A DNA stretch of 63,407 nt, filler included, from Chiloscyllium plagiosum (taxonomy: Eukaryota): the NCBI RefSeq assembly GCF_004010195.1. It is 7 parts of 7 records of this genome, joined end to end, with 100 filler letters (N's around TTAATTAATTAA, not from the genome) between each part and the next. Parts side by side here need not be neighbours in the genome. Positions count along the whole stretch, not along the records: positions 46,912 to 51,497 come from NW_025210775.1; 6 more parts are not named here. The stretch is one strand, 5' to 3'. The notes under the pieces are model-generated. The model saw only the letters and a program-made list of their open reading frames with translations. It was not told the DNA's origin and searched no databases. This document shows, piece by piece, positions 2,387 through 51,497 of this stretch. Numbering within the stretch: the first letter of the stretch is position 1; each line of letters starts with the position of its first letter. The position numbers were made by a program, and so were the translations under genes.

Positions 2387-4366
2387 GGCCCAGATTCTTT
2401 CTGTTGTAACTGTGTGATGCTCTGACCCTCATCCCAGTCAAACAGCCTGACTCAAAGACTGATCATGGAAGGGGAAGGAAAGCGAAGGGATTGGAACATG
2501 TTGCGAATGCACGGGATGGGTCAGTGGGTCAGAGCCTGTCCTGCCCCTCCAGCTCACACTGATAACCTGAGGATCTCCTCTCTCTGCTGGGCCTTCATGG
2601 AATAAGGTTTGTGTCCAAACCAGTCCCCAGTGAGAATAGGCCAACAGCACAGAACTGCCCTTCATTTGACAAGAATATGTCAGTCTTCCTGAGAGAGACG
2701 AAACCCTGGTCAATGTGAGAAATGGGGCTTTACTCCAGGAGAAGACATGCTTCTGGGGTCAAGGGTTAACATCCATTAGTGGGGCAGAGCAGAGGGAGAT
2801 TTATCCTGCATTCAACTATCACCACCCGGGACACTGTGAGAAAGAGAGAGAAGCGAGAGAGAGAGAGAGGTAGAGGGTGCATGTGTGTAATTGAGGGATA
2901 GAGGGAGGAGCATCTGAGACAGTGTGAGATATGTGAGGGGACCAAGACCGAGGTAGAGGGAGGTAGAAATGGTGAGGTTGAGGGATAGAGAGAGAGAATC
3001 AAGATGTGACTGAGAGGGATGGAGAGAGAGAAAGAGACAGGATGGGTGTGAATGAAGGGAATCGCGAGAAAGGGTAGGGTTAAGTGTGTGTGTGAGAGAG
3101 AGAGATGAGCATGGTTAGAGACAAAATGACAGAGAGGGAGGGAGAGAGACTGTAGATTGGGAATGCAGACAGGGAGGGAGAGAGACAGTAAATTGGGAAT
3201 GCAGACAGTGAGGGAGCGACAGAGAGAGGAATAGAGAGGGGCAATTAACATTTGGAAGTTTTCAATTGATCCGAGAGATGGAGTGAGTGACAGTGAGAGA
3301 GAAAGATGCAGAAATAGAGATTATGAGACAGAGTAAGGAAGCGTGAGTGAGTTGGAGAGAGTGGCTATGAGACAGAATGAGAGTGAGAGAGAGAGAGAGG
3401 TGGACAGGTCCTGGTCACCACATTCTGGGAAGGATGTGATTGTACTTGAGAGGGTGCAGAGATTAACCAGGATGCTGCCTGGGATGGAGGGTCAGCTGTG
3501 AGGAAAGCTTGGAAAGGTTGGAATTGTTTTCCTTGGAGCAGTGAAGGTTGAGAGGGGACCTGATTTGGAGCAGTGATAAGGTGGGCAGGAAGGCACTTTT
3601 TAAAAGAGTCAAGGATTCAATAACCAGGGACAAACATTGAAGGTTAAGCAGACATGGCCACACAGAAACTGCTGCTGGAGTAGGCCATTCAGCCCTTTGA
3701 GTCTGCTCTATCATTCAGTCTGACCATGACTGATCCTCCATCTCAAAGCCATATTCCTACCTTCTCACCATTCCCTTCATGCTGTGAAAATGCAAAACAA
3801 TTATCTCTCTTTCTCTTGAATATATTCAGTTCCTTGTCCTCCACAGCTTGACTACCCACTGAGTGAAGAAATGTTTCCTCATCTCAGTCTGAAATGGTCT
3901 ACGCTGTATCCCCCTGAGATTGTGACCCCTGGTTCCAGACTCCCCAACCAGGGGAAACCTTCTCCATTCCCAGCCCTGTTAGAATGTTATATGTTTCAAT
4001 CAGATCCTCTCTCATCCTTCTGAACTCGAGTGAGTCCAGGCCCAGTTGAGTTAGAGAGTGAGAGGTGAGTTGGAGAGAAATGTTTTCACCCAGAGGGTGG
4101 TGGGAGACTGGAACTCACTGCCAGAAAGGCTGGCTGAGTCACAAGCTCTTGTGACATTGGAGCAATGTTAAGATATTCCCTTATGTTGCTGTAGCCCCCA
4201 AGTTAATGGGCCAGGAGCTGGTGGATGGGATTAGTGTCATCAGATCTTTGCTGACCAGTTTATACACAATGGGCCAAATGGTCTCATTCAGTGCTGTTAA
4301 CATCAATGACTCTCTGAGACAGAGAGAGAGAATGGGAGAGAGAGAGAGAAGAGGAAGTATGAGGTA

Positions 4367-4447: not shown

Positions 4448-4507
4448 GCAGAGCTCAGTGAAGGGAGAGTTTCTCAGGAACCAGGCACAGGGACAGGAGC
4501 ACACACC

Positions 4508-4556
4508 ATGATTTCACACATCCAGCTGATCTGGCCCTTGGCATTCTGTGTCGCAG
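4508..4556 (+). CDS. IGKV: Ig kappa (NS4-type) leader exon of V1
   Basis: MISHIQLIWPLAFCVA-G followed by a phase-1 GT donor at 4557. Confidence 0.92.
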
Positions 4557-4742
4557 GTACAAATCTCTCTCCTCCCACCTTGAATCTTTAGCTGCTCTCC
4601 ATTTCACTCCAATTCCACTGACTTGTGATTGAAGGGAAAATGCTGAAACCAGAGGAAAGCTCAGTGTCTCCAACAATCTCTCATTTCGCAGTCTCTTTCT
4701 GTGACAGTTCTGACTTCACTGTGTTTCTCTCTGACCCCTCAG

Positions 4743-5026
4743 GTATCAGTGGGGACATCACCATGACTCAGTCTCCCCCGGTGCTGTCAGTGGGACTGGG
4801 CCAAACCGCAACCATCACCTGTACGGCCAGTCAAAGCATTAGCAGCTACCTTGCTTGGTACCAGCAGCGAGAAGGTCAGAAACCCTCTCTCCTGATCTAT
4901 CAAGCAACAAATCGATTCACAGGAGTCTCCAATCGATTCACCGGCAGTGGATCAGGGACCAGTTTCACCCTGAAAATCAGCAACGTTCAGAATGAGGATG
5001 TCGCTGACTATTACTGTCAGCAGTAT
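4743..5026 (+). pseudogene. IGKV: Ig kappa V1 exon, truncated in CDR3, no RSS
   Basis: AG acceptor at 4741-4742; [27 protein letters not shown]...WYQQ...DYYCQQY, then fused to duplicated upstream flank; no heptamer/nonamer follows. Confidence 0.9.
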
Positions 5027-6711
5027 ACTGTGAGAAAGAGAGAGAAGCGAGAGAGAGAGAGGTAGAGGGTGCATGTGTGTAATTGAGGGATAGAGGGAGG
5101 AGCATCTGAGACAGTGTGAGATATGTGAGGGGACCAAGACTGAGGTAGAGGGAGGTAGAAATGGTGAGGTTGAGGGATAGAGAGAGAGAATCAAAATGTG
5201 ACTGAGAGGGATGGAGAGAGAGAAAGAGACAGGATGGGTGTGAATGAAGGGAATCGCGAGAGAGGGTAGGGCTAAGTGTGTGTGAGAGAGAGAGAGATGA
5301 GCATGGTTAGAGACAAAATGACAGAGAGGGAGGGAGAGAGACTGTAGATTGGGAATGCAGACAGGGAGGGAGAGAGACAGTAAATTGGGAATGCAGACAG
5401 TGAGGGAGCGACAGAGAGAGGAATAGAGAGGGGCAATTAACATTTGGAAGTTTTCAATTGATCCGAGAGATGGAGTGAGTGACAGTGAGAGAGAAAGATG
5501 CAGAAATAGAGATTATGAGACAGAGTAAGGAAGCGTGAGTGAGTTGGAGAGAGTGGCTATGAGACAGAGTGAGAGTGAGAGAGAGAGAGAGAGGTGGACA
5601 GGTCGTGGTCACCACATTCTGGGAAGGATGTGATTGTACTTGAGAGGGTACAGAGATTAACCAGGATGCTGCCTGGGATGGAGGGTCAGCTGTGAGGAAA
5701 GCTTGGAAAGGTTGGAATTGTTTTCCTTGGAGCAGTGAAGGTTGAGAGGGGACCTGATAGAGGGCTATAAGATTATTTGGAGCAGTGATAAGGTGGGCAG
5801 GAAGGCACTTTTTAAAAGAGTCAAGGATTCAATAACCAGGGACAAACATTGAAGATAACGCAGACATGGCCACACAGAAACTGCTGCTGGAGTACGCAAT
5901 TCGGCCCTTTGAGTCTGCTCTATCATTCAGTCTGATCATGACTGATCCTCCATCTCAAAGCCATATTCCTACCTTCTCCCCAGTCCCTTCATGCTGTGAA
6001 AATGCAAAACAATTATCTCTCTTTCTCTTGAATATATTCAGTTCCTTGTCCTCCACAGTTTGACTACCCATTGAGTGAAGAAATGTTTCCTCATCTCAGT
6101 CTGAAATGGTCTACGCTGTATCCCCCTGAGATTGTGACCCCTGGTTCCAGACTCCCCAACCAGTGGAAACCTCCTCCATCCCCAGCCCTGTTAGAATGTT
6201 ATATGTTTCAATCAGATCCTCTCTCATCCTTCTGAACTCGAGTGAGTCCAGGCCCAGTTGAGTTAGAGAGTGAGAGGTGAGTTGGAGAGAAATGTTTTCA
6301 CCCAGAGGGTGGTGGGAGATTGGAACTCACTGCCAGAAAGGCTGGCTGAGTCACAAGCTCTTGTGACATTGGAGCAATGTTAAGATATTCCCTTATGTTG
6401 CTGTAGCCCCCANNNNNNNNNNNNNNNNNNNNNNNNNNNNNNNNNNNNNNNNNNNNNNNNNNNNNNNNNNNNNNNNNNNNNNNNNNNNNNNNNNNNNNNN
6501 NNNNNNNNNNNNNNNNNNNNNNNNNNNNNNNNNNNNNNNNNNNNNNNNNNNNNNNNNNNNNNNNNNNNNNNNNNNNNNNNNNNNNNNNNNNNNNNNNNNN
6601 NNNNNNNNNNNNNNNNNNNNNNNNNNNNNNNNNNNNNNNNNNNNNNNNNNNNNNNNNNNNNNNNNNNNNNNNNNNNNNNNNNNNNNNNNNNNNNNNNNNN
6701 NNNNNNNNNNN

Positions 6712-38872: not shown

Positions 38873-38900
38873 CACAGTGATACAGATCCGTACAAAAACC
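38873..38900 (+). other. 12-bp-spacer RSS of V3 (perfect consensus)
   Basis: CACAGTG + 12 nt + ACAAAAACC. Confidence 0.97.
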
Positions 38901-39296
38901 TCAATGTGCACAGCACCACCTCCTGTACTGACACATCCCAGAGTTATATAAAATGTATAATAATTGACACACAGTCCCACCTCCTGCACTGACACATCCA
39001 CAGTCACATAAAAATTAAGTTTAACAAATTACCCCATGTTGGGATTGTCACTGTCCAAAACACACTTCAGTCCCTGTGGTGTCCACCGCTCACTGAAGGC
39101 CTCAGGTTTCCCTCTTACATCCATGGCCACATGTGAAGAGCACCTGCAAGATTTAACATCGAAAAATAAAGTTCACAAACTGCCCGAGCCCAGCTGGACA
39201 GAGAGAGAAAAAGACATGAGTGAGGGTGGAAGAGAGAGACCGAGTGAGAGAGAGAGAATTAGAGGTAGAGAGTGACGGAGAGTAACAAAGAGCAGA

Positions 39297-39335
39297 GGTT
39301 TTTGTGCAGCCTCTGCACTGGGAGCTCTCACTGTG
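39297..39335 (-). other. 23-bp-spacer RSS of J2 (perfect consensus)
   Basis: GGTTTTTGT + 23 nt + CACTGTG. Confidence 0.97.
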
Positions 39336-39370
39336 GTTTACGTTCGGTAAAGGAACCAAGCTCAGACTGA
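39336..39370 (+). CDS. IGKJ: Ig kappa J2 segment
   Basis: FTFGKGTKLRL, GTAAGT donor at 39371. Confidence 0.95.
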
Positions 39371-40994
39371 GTAAGTAAACCTCAATCCTCCGTTATTAAC
39401 CCTTTCAAATTCTAAAGACAATTTCTAAAACATAAATGCTGAATTGTTGAAGGTATTAATTGGAAGCTGCAGTGAATGAAATGGTTGATTGAGGAGCACT
39501 GTGTCTAACAGGGTGTCCAGTTGTATTTCTTCAGTTCCATTGCCCCCTTTAAAAAGCTAGATATAAGTCAGTCAGTTTTACTCACTGTGTGGAGGAGCTC
39601 TGTCCATTTGCAGCCTGTGGTCCCATTCCTGCAGCATGGAGTGAAATCAGTGAGTAGCCTCCTGCCAGTCTCAGTGTGATGGACACGGGCAGAGTTTGAT
39701 CTGAGCTCTGGCTCCCTGTCCCAGTCTCTGATCTCATTGACCTCAGCAGCAGCAGCAGCAGCAGCACAGTGAGACACTAAGCTCCCACCTCCCCCAGCTT
39801 TAACTCTGCTCAATCAAACAATCACAGAATTGTTACAGTGCACAAGGAGGCCATTCTGCCCATCCTGTCTGCACCAGCTCTCCGAATGAGCAATTCACTG
39901 AGTGTCATTCTCCTGCCTTCTCCCTGTCACCCTGCACATTGTTCCTTTTCAAATAACAGTCTCATTCCCTTCGGAATGTTTCAATTGAAGCTGCCTCCAC
40001 CACACTCTCAGNNNNNNNNNNNNNNNNNNNNNNNNNNNNNNNNNNNNNNNNNNNNNNNNNNNNNNNNNNNNNNNNNNNNNNNNNNNNNNNNNNNNNNNNN
40101 NNNNNNNNNNNNNNNNNNNNNNNNNNNNNNNNNNNNNNNNNNNNNNNNNNNNNNNNNNNNNNNNNNNNNNNNNNNNNNNNNNNNNNNNNNNNNNNNNNNN
40201 NNNNNNNNNNNNNNNNNNNNNNNNNNNNNNNNNNNNNNNNNNNNNNNNNNNNNNNNNNNNNNNNNNNNNNNNNNNNNNNNNNNNNNNNNNNNNNNNNNNN
40301 NNNNNNNNNNNNNNNNNNNNNNNNNNNNNNNNNNNNNNNNNNNNNNNNNNNNNNNNNNNNNNNNNNNNNNNNNNNNNNNNNNNNNNNNNNNNNNNNNNNN
40401 NNNNNNNNNNNNNNNNNNNNNNNNNNNNNNNNNNNNNNNNNNNNNNNNNNNNNNNNNNNNNNNNNNNNNNNNNNNNNNNNNNNNNNNNNNNNNNNNNNNN
40501 NNNNNNNNNNNNNNNNNNNNNNNNNNNNNNNNNNNNNNNNNNNNNNNNNNNNNNNNNNNNNNNNNNNNNNNNNNNNNNNNNNNNNNNNNNNNNNNNNNNN
40601 NNNNNNNNNNNNNNNNNNNNNNNNNNNNNNNNNNNNNNNNNNNNNNNNNNNNNNNNNNNNNNNNNNNNNNNNNNNNNNNNNNNNNNNNNNNNNNNNNNNN
40701 NNNNNNNNNNNNNNNNNNNNNNNNNNNNNNNNNNNNNNNNNNNNNNNNNNNNNNNNNNNNNNNNNNNNNNNNNNNNNNNNNNNNNNNNNNNNNNNNNNNN
40801 NNNNNNNNNNNNNNNNNNNNNNNNNNNNNNNNNNNNNNNNNNNNNNNNNNNNNNNNNNNNNNNNNNNNNNNNNNNNNNNNNNNNNNNNNNNNNNNNNNNN
40901 NNNNNNNNNNNNNNNNNNNNNNNNNNNNNNNNNNNNNNNNNNNNNNNNNNNNNNNNNNNNNNNNNNNNNNNNNNNNNNNNNNNNNNNNNNNNNN

Positions 40995-46769: not shown

Positions 46770-46811
46770 GCCGTGAGAACTCTCAGCCAAAGCTGACCCT
46801 GCTGCCCCCCT
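46770..46811 (+). CDS. IGKC: Ig kappa C exon, first 42 nt (cut by a spacer)
   Basis: gtctttcAG acceptor; (S)RENSQPKLTLLPP, in phase with J2. Confidence 0.9.
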
Positions 46812-46911: not shown

Positions 46912-47947
46912 GGACAAGTCCTGGTCACCACATTCTGGGAAGGATGTGATTGTACCTGAGAGGGTACAGGGGAGATTTCCCAGAATGCCGCCTAAATCTG
47001 AGCTTTGAGAAAAGATTGGAAAGGTTGGGATTGTTTTCCTTGGAGCAGATAAGATTATTCGGAGCAGTGATAGGGTGGGTAGGAAGGCACTTATTGCGTG
47101 AGACAAGGACTCAATAACCTGGGACAGAGATTGAAGGTAACACAGGCATGGACACATAGAAACTGCTGCAGGAGTTGGCCATTCAGCCCTTTGAGCCTGC
47201 TCTGTCATTTAGTATGATCATGGCTGATCCTCTATCTCAAAGCCATATTCCTGCTTTCTCCCTATTCCCTTCATGCTGTTAAAATGCAAACAATTATCTC
47301 TCTCTTTTTCTTGAATATATTCAGTTCCTTATCCTCCACAGCCTTCAGTGAAGAGAATTCCACAGGTTGACCATCCTCTGAGTGAAGAAATGTTTCCTCA
47401 TCTCAGTCCAAAATGGACTACCCCGTATCCCCCTGAGACTGTTCCCCAACCAGGGGAAACCTCCTTCCTGCCCAGCCCTGTTAGAATTTTATACATCCAT
47501 CTGAATTCGAGTGAGTCCAGGCCCAGTCGAGTTCGAGAGAGAGAGGAGAGTTAAGGAGAACTGTTTTCACCCAGAGGGTGGTGGGAGTCTGGAACTCACT
47601 GCCTGAAAGGCTGGTTGAGTCACAAACTCTCGTGACATTGGAGCAGTGTTTAGATATTCCGTTGTGTTGCTGCAGGCTCCAGGGTAATGGGCCAAGAGCT
47701 GGAGGATGGGATTAGTGTCATCAGATCGCTGTTTAACAGCACAGATACAATGGGCCAAATGGCCTCATTCAGTGCTGTTCACATCAATCACTCTCTGAGA
47801 CAAATAGAGAGGGAGAAGAGGAAGTGCGAGGGACTGATGTGGCTCTCTCTGCCCGATGCCATTTACATACTGAGGAACACCCAGTCAGACTCTCACAGGC
47901 TGCAGCTTTATAAAGCAGAGTCCAATGAAGGGAGAGTTTATCAGGAA

Positions 47948-48143
47948 AAGCGCAGCAGGTCAGGGAGCTTCCAAGGAACAGGAGAATTGACGTTTCAGGC
48001 ATAAGCCCTTCTTCAGGAAGAAGGGCTTATGCCCGAAACGTCGATTCTCCTGTTCCTTGGATGCTGCCTGACCTGCTGCGCTTTTCCAGCAGCACATTTT
48101 CAGCTCTGATCTCAGGCATCTACAGTCCTCACTTTCTCCTCGA
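47948..48143. mobile_element. Palindromic Penelope-derived insertion between the TATA box and leader of V4, 15-bp TSD
   Basis: AGAGTTTATCAGGAA at 47933-47947 and 48144-48158; absent from V1 and V3; 71-bp inverted arms. Confidence 0.88.
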
Positions 48144-48185
48144 AGAGTTTATCAGGAACCTGGCACAGGGACAGGAGCACACACC

Positions 48186-48715
48186 ATGATTTCACACATC
48201 CAGCTGATCTGGCCCCTGGCATTCTGTGTCGCAGGTACAAATCTCTCTCCTTCCACCTTGAATCTTTAGCTGCTCTCCATTTCACTCCAATTCCACTGAC
48301 TTGTGATTGAAGGAAAAATGCTGAGAGGAATGCTCAGTGTCTCCAACAATCTCTCATTTGACAGGCTCTTTCTGTGACAGTTCTGACTTCACTGTGTTTC
48401 TCTCTGACCCCTCAGGTATCAGTGGGGACTTCATCATGACCCAGTCTCCCCCGGTGCTGTCAGTGGGACTGGGCCAGACTGCAATCATCACCTGTATGGC
48501 CAGTCAATCTGTTAGCAATGAGCTTTCCTGATACCAGCAGCGAGAAGGTCAGAAACCCTCTCTCCTGATCTATGGTGCAACAACTCGATTCACAGGAGTC
48601 TCCGATCGATTCACCGGCAGTGGATCAGGGACCAGTTTCACCCTGAAAATCAGCAACGTTCAGAATGAGGATGTCGCTGACTATTACTGTCAGCAGTATA
48701 GCAGTCCCCCCTATA
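48186..48715 (+). pseudogene. IGKV: Ig kappa V4 pseudogene (leader 48186-48234, V exon 48416-~48715)
   Basis: Conserved Trp codon is TGA at 48529-48531; no RSS; V end abuts J-C intron sequence. Confidence 0.92.
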
Positions 48716-51497
48716 TGTTATTAACCCTGTCAATAGTGAAATACACTTTCTAAAACACAAATGCTGAATTGTTGAAGGTGTTAGTGGGGAGCTGCAGTGA
48801 ATGAAATGGTTGATTGAGGAGCACTGTGTCTAACAGGGTGTCCAGCTGTATTTCTTTCGTTCCATTGCCCCCTTTAAGCAGCAAGGTATAATTCAGTAAG
48901 TTTTACTCATCGTGTGGAGGAGCTCTGTCCATTTGCAGCCTGTGGTCCCATTCCTGCAGCATGGAGTGAAATCAGTGAGTAGCCTCCTGCCAGTCTCAGT
49001 GTGACCACAATCACAGAATTGTTACAGTGCACAAGGAGGCCATTCTGTCCATCCTGTCGGTACTGGTTCTCTGAAAGAGCAATTCACTGAGTGTCATTCT
49101 CCTGCCTTCTCCCTGTCACCCTGCACATTGTTCCTTTTCAAATAACAGTCTCATTCCCTTCGGAATGTTTCAATTGAAGCTGCCTCCACCACACTCTCAG
49201 GCAGTGCATTCCACACCTTAACCACTCACTGGCTGAACATGTTGTTCCCCATCTCACTTTTGTTACTTTTCTCAATTACTTTCAATCTGCGGTCTCTCGG
49301 TCACAATCCTTTCTCACTTGGGAACATTTTCTCCCTATTTACTCTGTCCAGGCCCCTCCTGGTTTTAATTCCTCGAACAAATCTCCTCTCAGCCTTCTCC
49401 AAAGAAGACAGTCCCAAATTCTCCAATCAAACTTCATAACTGATGTTCCTCATCCCTGAAATGATCTTTGGGAATATTTTTTGCCATTTCTACAAAACGT
49501 CACCTCCTTCCTGAATTATTCACATTTTCTATGTCCCTCATGATTTTATAAACCTTTACGAGGTCACTCCTCAGACTCTTACACATCAGAGTAAAAAGTC
49601 TCAGCTTTTCCAGCCTCTCATTGTCCTGGAGTCATACAGCGTGGAAACAGACCTTTCAGTTCAACTTGTCCATGCTAACCAGATATTCTAAACTGACCTC
49701 ATCCCATTTGCCAGCATTTAGCTTACATCCCTCTAAACCCTTCCTATCCATGTACCCATCCCAATGTATTTTAAATGCTGTAATTGCATCTGCCTCCAAC
49801 ACTTTCTCTGGCAACTCGATCCATACACATACCACCCTCTGTGTGACAAGTTACCCTCAGGTCCCTTTTGAATCTTTTGCCTCTCACCTTAAACCTACGC
49901 CATCTTGTTTTGGACTCCCTTTCCCAAGGAAAAGACCTTGGATATGCACCCTGTCCATGCCCCTCATGGTTTTTTAGGTTAGATTTAGATTAGATTACAT
50001 TACAGTGTGGAAACACATCTATAAGGCCATCCCTCAGCCTTGAATGCTGCAGGGGAAATAGCCCCAGTTTCTTCAGCCTTTCCCTGTAGCTCAAACCCTC
50101 CAATTCCTGGCCATGTCCTTGTGAATCTTTTCTGCAGCTTTTTAAGTTTAACAACATCCTTCCTATCGCAGAATGATCAGAATTGTTCACATTATTCCCA
50201 AAGTGGCCTCACCAATCTCCTATTCAGCTGCACCATGATGTCCCACCTCCTGTACTCAATGCAGTGACCAATAAAGGCAAGCATACCCAACACCTTCTTC
50301 ATCAACCTGTCTACCTGTGACCCACTTTCAAGGAATAATGCACCTGCATCTTCACCCCTAGGTCTCTTTGTTCAGCAACACTCCACAGGGCCCTACCATT
50401 AACTGTATAACTCCTGCCCTGGTTTGCCTTTCCAAAATGCAACATCTAACATTTATCTAAACTGAACTCCATTTGCCACACCTCTGCCCATTGCCCCATC
50501 TGATCAATGTCCCGCTGTACTCTGAGATGATTTTCTTCACTATCCACTGTCCCGCCAATTTTGATGTCCTCTACAAACTTACTGAAACTCCTATATTCAC
50601 ATCCAAATCATATCTTTAAATGACAAAAGCAGTGAACCCAACACCAATGCCTGTGGCACACAGCTATTCACAGATCTCCAGTCTGAAAAACAACCCTTTA
50701 CCACCACTCTCTGTCTCATATCTTCAGTCCAATTTTTTTACCCCAATGGCTCACTTCCTCTGGATCCCATGTGGTCTAACCTTACTAACCAGTCTATCAT
50801 GTGGAACCTTGTCAAACACTTTACTAAAGTCCATATAGACAATGTTTACTGTTCTGCCTTCATCAATCTTCTTTGTCACCTTCTCAATCAAATTCAGGAG
50901 ACATGAATTCCTATGCATTGAACCACATTGATTATCCAAAGAATGTAAATCCTATCCCACAGAATCCACTCCAACATCTTACCCAGCACTGACATCAGGC
51001 TCACTGGTCTATAGTTCCCTGGCTTTTCCTTACAGTCTTTCTCAAATAATGGCATAACATTAGCAAACCTCTCTGGTTCTCCAGCTCCTTACCCATGGTT
51101 GTCAGTGATACATATATCTCAGCAAGGGGCCCAGCAATCTCTTCCCTAGTTTCCCACAATGTTCTGGGATACACATGATCAGGTCCTAGGGTTTATCTAT
51201 CTTTATGTGTTTTAAGATCGTTTGCGTCTCCTCATTTGTGTGTGGTCTCTTTTCAAGACATCACTATTTTTCCAAATTCCCGAGCTTTCTCCCCAATAAA
51301 TACTGACCTGAAATATTTGTTTGGGATCTCACCCATCTCTTGTGTCTTACCAAAATACAGCACTCACATTTATCTGAATTAAACTCCATCTGCCATTCCT
51401 CAGCCCACTGGCCCAGTTGGTCAAGATTCCATTGTATTCTTAGACAGCCTTCTTCGCTGCCAATAATTAGATTAGATTCTCTACAGTGTGGAAACAG

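What the first reader, a model, noticed from the sequence alone, without database searches (positions are those of the whole stretch)
48690..48760. Fossil aberrant V-to-intron join: V4 fused ~21 nt past the J donor, with J and both RSSs deleted
Seen: V4 runs to a full-length coding end (...CAGCAGTATAGCAGTCCCCCCTATA) and continues with TGTTATTAACCCT...TTTCTAAAACACAAATGCTGAATTG, which matches 39391 onward and 7520 onward, just inside the J-C intron. About 520 bp (12-RSS, spacer, 23-RSS, 35-nt J, donor) are missing relative to the V3-J2 cluster. The left break falls where the heptamer would start. Established: sharks carry germline-joined Ig genes attributed to RAG activity in germ cells, including in this light-chain type. 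Inference: a RAG-initiated germline join with ~56 nt of one-sided resection, i.e. a failed germline joining event. The Trp>stop and promoter insertion fit a long-dead germline copy.
Basis: partly seen in the sequence, partly recalled or inferred. Interest (0 to 1): 0.7.

Follow-up and report, generated by a model that had tools for sequence, protein, structure and literature searches.

The report
Broken pre-joined shark antibody gene copy
The odd junction is real and sits in four copies in this shark genome, but it is likely an ordinary inherited, pre-joined antibody light-chain gene that later lost 50 letters between two short repeats, not the scar of a failed cut by the antibody-gene recombinase.

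Summary
The junction is real: V4 runs into the J-C intron, 518 nt short of the split V3 cluster. It is not unique. Three more loci in the genome break at the same base, and an independent sequencing run holds that form letter for letter over 60 nt. It is therefore inherited and was duplicated. J is probably not wholly gone: 48714-48719 reads like J bases 5-10 as seen in 28 ordinary joined V-J genes of this genome, all of which lost at most 5 nt of J. The J start and the intron landing site share CGTT, 50 nt apart; only 2 of 386 landing sites would. Best reading (0.75): a normal germline V-J join of the NS4/kappa kind, then an ordinary 50-nt deletion. One-step 56-nt resection remains possible (0.15), since no J-intact sister on the same flanks was found. 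The scan had not noted this stretch; it had noted an ordinary joined kappa gene in this genome (e1-9988099). Low interest.

The parts
47909..47914 (+). TATA box of V4
   Evidence: sequence; same motif before V3
47934..48158 (.). 211-nt insertion (47948-48158) with 14-nt target-site duplication, between TATA box and ATG; internal inverted repeat; likely a retroelement fragment
   Evidence: private to V4 at this site among 62 loci
48186..48234 (+). leader exon
   Evidence: matches V1 and V3 leaders
48416..48713 (+). kappa-type V exon, ending in a full-length-looking coding end (CCCCCTA, as in split genes L020 and L066); mosaic of paralog patches
48529..48531 (+). TGA stop at FR2 Trp
   Evidence: run X4 shows only G at 48531
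48714..48719 (+). junction hexamer TATGTT: likely J bases 5-10 with CpG decay; 48716-48719 is also the tetramer shared with the intron landing site
48720..51497 (+). J-C intron from base 25 onward, no donor; the C exon lies about 7.2 kb downstream on contig C97370, outside the window, one base short near its start
49004..49010 (+). second, V4-private deletion of about 135 nt in the intron
   Evidence: gap 4 nt in V4 against 125-153 nt in all other loci where both anchors were found
38873..39394 (+). reference split cluster V3: 12-RSS from 38873, 23-RSS heptamer 39328-39334, J 39335-39370 (CGTT at 39341-39344), intron CGTT at 39391-39394

Best explanation
V4 is a dead shark kappa-type light-chain gene whose V-to-intron junction likely arose in two steps: an ordinary germ-line V-J join, then a likely later 50-nt deletion between two short repeats that removed the rest of J and the splice donor. 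Step 1 (inferred, by the mechanism of Lee et al. 2000): RAG removed both RSSs and the spacer, and J lost about 4 nt. Step 2 (inferred): slippage or microhomology-mediated repair joined J's CGTT to the intron's CGTT 50 nt on. Step 3 (shown as four loci with one breakpoint; order inferred): the cluster was duplicated and patched by exchange with paralogs. V4 then gained its own stop codon, insertion, intron deletion and C-exon frameshift (shown).
For: Census of 62 V loci: 29 split, 28 ordinary joined V-J, 4 J-less, 1 other (L021 was auto-labelled 'other' because its contig ends, and reclassed by eye). J 5' loss in the 28 is 1-5 nt, never near 56. TATGTT precedes the J core in 7 of 28 joined genes (8 with a variant) and in 0 of 27 split J segments. 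L002, L016 and L021 have the same junction length (n=25) as 15 of 28 joined genes and lie 2 substitutions from L007 and L054. L002 and L021 share the KWV CDR1 with 7 n=25 joined genes, 6 of which have TATGT, and fall in a starred 13-row clade with 9 joined and 2 split genes (100/97). V4's own junction (n=27) has the in-frame length of 4 joined genes. CGTT or TGTT occurs at 2 of 386 possible landing sites, and the observed site is the only exact one. No CAC or GTG lies near the landing site. 44 gaps of 10 nt or more, 14 of them 30-140 nt, occur in 73.7 kb of aligned paralogs; joined genes L060 and L062 have 20-21-nt deletions with 3-4 nt of homology beside the same donor (counted by hand).
Against: No J-intact gene with the same junction and the same flanks was found. 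In the 1.35-kb downstream tree the nearest rows are split genes L022, L028, L029 and a joined gene with another junction, L009; by raw identity V4's intron is nearer L022 (97%) and L009 (96%) than L002 (95%) or L016 (93%). Best edit distances tie between one-step and two-step models (2 and 2 for L002, 4 and 4 for V4). None of the 14 deletions of 30-140 nt shows 4 nt or more of homology against the V3 reference, so homology use is not the rule here. The intron tetramer itself decays to TGTT in 7 of 50 loci. V4's TA at 48714-48715 fits P nucleotides as well as J. V4 differs from the other three copies in CDR1 and CDR3, so its V end may be a later patch.
Confidence: 0.75

Rival explanations
1. 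One-step aberrant RAG join in a germ cell: the V coding end was kept whole, perhaps with two P nucleotides, and the J end was chewed back 56 nt before ligation.
For: V4's end matches the full coding end of split genes L020 and L066, and L020 plus two P bases plus the intron tetramer fits V4 as well as L020 plus trimmed J (4 edits each). The nearest downstream relatives are split genes. No J-intact sister was found.
Against: It needs the resected end to stop on one of 2 of 386 sites that reproduce J bases 7-10. 0 of 28 other joined genes lost more than 5 nt of J. Three of four copies match the commonest ordinary junction in length and in the TATGTT state.
Confidence: 0.15
2. Out-of-register exchange between clusters: a crossover or conversion tract from a joined TATGTT-type gene resolved at the intron tetramer of a different cluster, so V-J remnant and intron come from two genes.
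For: The V of L002 and L021 groups with KWV joined genes, but their introns group with L022, L028, L029 and L009, and the intron variant right after the junction differs from that of L005, L007, L008 and L050. Nearest neighbours switch along the gene.
Against: Mosaicism is general in this family (trees disagree for many rows), so a later patch explains the same pattern. It still needs a prior ordinary V-J join, so it is a variant of the best explanation.
Confidence: 0.08
3. Assembly chimera, or a somatic lymphocyte rearrangement caught in the assembly.
For: The assembly is fragmented (101,977 contigs). No laid run holds V4's own alleles: X4 lacks the stop at 48531.
Against: Four loci differing from one another by about 4-7% share the breakpoint. 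In run X4 a 60-nt contig (depth 32.4, no mismatch) covers the L002 junction and abuts a 66-nt contig with L002's upstream letters. It has 30 and 26 letters outside the shared tetramer, just under the tool's 31-letter bridging rule.
Confidence: 0.02

Closest known systems
Germline-joined NS4 (kappa, type III) light-chain genes of nurse shark, including pseudogenes R6 and R19 (Lee et al. 2000, PMC2193156)
   Same: Cluster-type leader-V-(J)-intron-C gene, both RSSs wholly excised, small trimming at the joint, mixed with split genes of the same isotype, decayed to a pseudogene.
   Different: All six published joints keep J (they were scored by PCR with a J primer, which would miss this form). Here the J body and donor are gone and the form exists in four copies. 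At least 28 joined genes were found here, against six there.
Ordinary small deletions between short direct repeats (slippage or microhomology-mediated end joining; general knowledge, recalled)
   Same: 50-nt loss bounded by a shared tetramer, one copy kept; neighbours L060 and L062 show similar losses beside the same donor.
   Different: Nothing in kind; the left break happens to lie in the first bases of J, which hides the J origin.
Kappa-deleting-element or cryptic-RSS recombination into the J-C intron (mammals; recalled)
   Same: A V or J-region break joined to intron sequence, inactivating a kappa gene.
   Different: No heptamer-like CAC or GTG lies near the landing site, and the C exon is retained.

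Membership tests
Shark Ig kappa (NS4, type III) cluster gene | [quoted passage not shown] | tested here: met
   Leader, intron, V and a same-strand C exon 7.2 kb downstream on C97370; layout as in PMC5192425 (passages)
Shark Ig kappa (NS4, type III) cluster gene | 12-nt spacer RSS at V, 23-nt at J, about 500 nt apart in split members | tested here: met
   12 in 29 of 29 split V, 23 in 24 of 24 J RSS matched; V-J distances 435-633; Lee et al. give 502-524 for NS4
Shark Ig kappa (NS4, type III) cluster gene | Sequence groups with nurse-shark NS4 | tested here: inconclusive
   V3 hits antibody light-chain V domains in the PDB, some named IgG1-kappa; no NS4 sequence was on hand for a direct comparison
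Germline-joined V-J gene (Lee et al. 2000) | Both RSSs and the intervening DNA fully excised, V ending at or just short of the heptamer border | tested here: met
Germline-joined V-J gene (Lee et al. 2000) | V joined to a recognisable J segment | tested here: inconclusive
   Only 6 nt fit J (48714-48719), 4 of them shared with the intron; the J body and donor are absent
Germline-joined V-J gene (Lee et al. 2000) | Present in germline, not only lymphocyte, DNA | tested here: met
   Indirect: four diverged loci share the breakpoint and run X4 holds the L002 form; V4's own alleles were seen only in the assembly, and tissue of origin is not on record
Germline-joined V-J gene (Lee et al. 2000) | RAG activity in germ cells as the cause | not testable with these tools
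   Inferred in PMC2193156 from RSS excision and P-like bases
Cryptic-RSS or kappa-deleting-element join | Heptamer at the intron breakpoint | tested here: not met
   No CAC or GTG in 39366-39420

The most novel reading that the evidence does not exclude
A single RAG break in a germ cell was repaired with 56 nt of one-sided J-end resection, fixed, and then copied to at least four clusters: a genomic fossil showing that germ-line V(D)J breaks can be handed to resection-prone end joining unlike that of lymphocytes.
Probability: 0.15. Interest if true: 0.5.

Novelty: new member of a known kind. Interest (0 to 1): 0.2.

Why it matters
On the best reading it matters little: a decayed copy of a gene type described in 2000, of use only as a marker that dead joined clusters keep being duplicated and patched. 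On the one-step reading it would be a rare look at how germ cells repair RAG breaks, which is inferred but not observed in sharks. The side result may be worth more: at least 28 joined kappa-type genes in one genome, 23 out of frame and 15 with one junction length that three split V ends could give through a 3-nt overlap with J.

Tried and rejected
Trees on 290 nt of intron and 528 columns of leader-V were poorly resolved and did not return the J-less copies as one group; the AU test did not reject it (p 0.62 and 0.157). The first tree was discarded because the V4 insertion entered the alignment. In one search, 8 of 42 rows were dropped for under 600 aligned bases. Edit distance did not separate the models. 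Searches with V4's flanks for a J-intact sister gave one new V locus (split, L111) and C73225, whose junction lies in an assembly gap. Genome searches score only 40 candidates each, so the census is a lower bound, and it is biased towards joined genes by the queries. No RNA holder was listed for the stretch. Runs X5, X8, X9, X10, X13 and X1 showed no listed piece across the junction (tables were cut, so this is not absence). No Pfam scan was obtained, and the C exon was not compared with the PDB. A cryptic RSS at the landing site was rejected. Five paper searches showed no description of a J-less germline join in their listings; most subscription journals are not in that library, and no supplements were read. 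No absolute date is given because no rate was tested.

Full report
Observation. The window is a pack of stretches; V4 lies at G000:C97370:10844-11454. Self-comparison and alignment show V4 matching V2 and V3 to about 48700 and their J-C introns from 48717. Against split cluster V3, 518 nt are missing from the heptamer start (38873) to the intron tetramer at 39391. The TGA at 48529-48531 and a 211-nt insertion with a 14-nt target-site duplication between TATA box and ATG are confirmed. V4 also has a private deletion of about 135 nt near 49005, and its C exon, 7.2 kb downstream, is one base shorter near its start than the paralog at window 46771; that could also be an assembly error.

The junction is shared. 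Genome searches and fetches gave 62 distinct V loci: 29 split, 28 ordinary joined V-J, 4 J-less and 1 other. The J-less loci are V4 (L001), L002, L016 and L021, all entering the intron at the same base. L002 and L016 are 95% identical over 5.7 kb; V4 is about 92-94% identical to L002 in long blocks. V4 and L002 are each other's nearest rows in 3 upstream windows each. On 1,347 downstream columns the three scorable copies form one group with weak support (78/72; 76% of 200 bootstrap trees; 34 of 42 rows kept). In public run X4 a 60-nt contig matches the L002 junction without a mismatch at depth 32.4 and overlaps by 30 nt a 66-nt contig with L002's upstream letters; this falls just short of the tool's 31-letter rule. 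X4 lacks V4's stop allele, so it is not the window's source. A chimera or a somatic event is therefore unlikely, though V4's own alleles were seen only in the assembly.

What the junction letters say. Split J segments begin with an 8-mer such as GGCTTACG before the TTCGG core. The hexamer ending two bases into that core is TACGTT in 15 and TATGTT in 7 of 28 joined genes, and never TATGTT in 27 split J segments. All four J-less loci have TATGTT just before the intron sequence. The intron site reads CCTCCGTT in 25 of 50 loci and CCTCTGTT in 7. J's CGTT and the intron's are 50 nt apart, and joined genes of the n=25 class are exactly 50 nt longer than L002 (intron anchor at 73 against 23). Among 386 positions downstream of J base 10 in V3, CGTT occurs once, at the observed site, and TGTT once more. 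L002, L016 and L021 differ by two substitutions from the junctions of L007 and L054. L002 and L021 share their CDR1 with seven n=25 joined genes, six of which have TATGT. V4's junction is 2 nt longer, which is the in-frame length of L011, L012, L053 and L055.

Weighing the models (my estimate, rough). Two steps need a deletion starting in the first 10 nt or so of J in one of about 29 joined lineages. With 14 deletions of 30-140 nt per 73.7 kb (counted by hand, single reference, some may be insertions in V3) that is about 0.05 expected events, times perhaps 0.05-0.1 for a 4-nt overlap. One step needs a resection ten times longer than any of the 28 other joins (1-5 nt), rate unknown, times 0.005 for the landing site. 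These terms alone give between about even and several to one for two steps. The TA before the tetramer, the modal length and the shared TATGT state add to that. Against it: no J-intact sister was found, the closest introns belong to split genes, none of the 14 larger deletions shows a 4-nt overlap, and edit distances tie. The family is mosaic, so flanks cannot settle descent of a 25-nt junction. I put two steps at 0.75, its inter-cluster variant at 0.08, one step at 0.15 and artefact at 0.02.

Shown and inferred. Shown: the junction, its four copies, the repeat, the lesions, and abundant ordinary joined genes. Inferred: RAG as cause of the first join, the order of join and deletion, the repair route, and which of the V4 and L002 junction forms is older.

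Comparison with the literature. Lee et al. 2000 (PMC2193156; parts 2-4 of 7 and found passages read) describe six joined NS4 genes among about 50 in nurse shark, two of them pseudogenes, with RSSs fully excised, small trimming and little TdT activity. Their PCR scoring used a J primer. PMC5192425 (passages) gives kappa = NS4 = type III, mostly split with a few joined. Other papers were seen only as search listings; those listings showed no J-less germline join. V3 matches antibody light-chain V domains in the PDB, and the RSS spacers are 12 at V and 23 at J; that this order is kappa-like is recalled. The scan's index has no look-alike of this stretch; note e1-9988099 describes an ordinary in-frame joined kappa gene in this genome and calls the animal a bamboo shark, which I did not test.

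Verdict. A real, inherited, duplicated pseudogene junction, most likely a known kind of joined gene plus an ordinary deletion. Interest 0.2.

Noticed in passing
28 joined loci (L003-L015, L035, L044-L046, L050-L058, L060, L062): 23 of 28 joined kappa-type genes are out of frame counted from the V cysteine (L060 may be put back by an upstream indel), and 15 share one junction length (n=25) across several V clades. Split genes L019, L048 and L049 end in CCCTTGA and their J begins GGCTTAC, so a 3-nt CTT overlap would give this junction; L048/L054 and L049/L056 look like such pairs. Likely recurrent homology-directed joining without TdT, or spread by conversion. The census is biased towards joined genes and may include alleles.
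   Followed up: partly
window 4466-5030 and 2833-4200: V1 breaks inside CDR3 at about 5026, well short of the heptamer position, and runs into a 96.8% copy of its own upstream sequence: a tandem duplication of about 2.2 kb ahead of V2. The upstream break lies in a CACTGTG at 2832-2838, of which 6 bases are kept, which is not the RAG cutting side.
   Followed up: partly
window about 39766 and 7880; J-C intron of most loci: A CACAGTG follows the CAG run in the J-C intron in 30 of 41 loci scored, recalling the mammalian kappa intron heptamer (recalled). No good nonamer was seen by eye; V4 lost it in its 135-nt deletion. May be chance.
   Followed up: partly
L020, L059, L043, L028, L060, L062: Small deletions hit functional signals in other clusters: beside the V nonamer (L020, L059), the J heptamer (L043), the donor (L028) and just past the donor (L060, L062).
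   Followed up: no
L071 = G000:C73225:1614-1919: Locus whose upstream flank ties as V4's closest, J intact, V-J junction inside an assembly gap whose length fits neither joined nor split form.
   Followed up: partly
window 54199 onward (+), about 11960 downward (-), about 52760 downward (-), 46771-46811 (+): Constant-domain exons in other stretches: two kappa-like, one cut at a joint, and one of another kind with a heavy-chain-like secretory tail; the minus-strand kappa-like exon has a frameshift and a stop.
   Followed up: no
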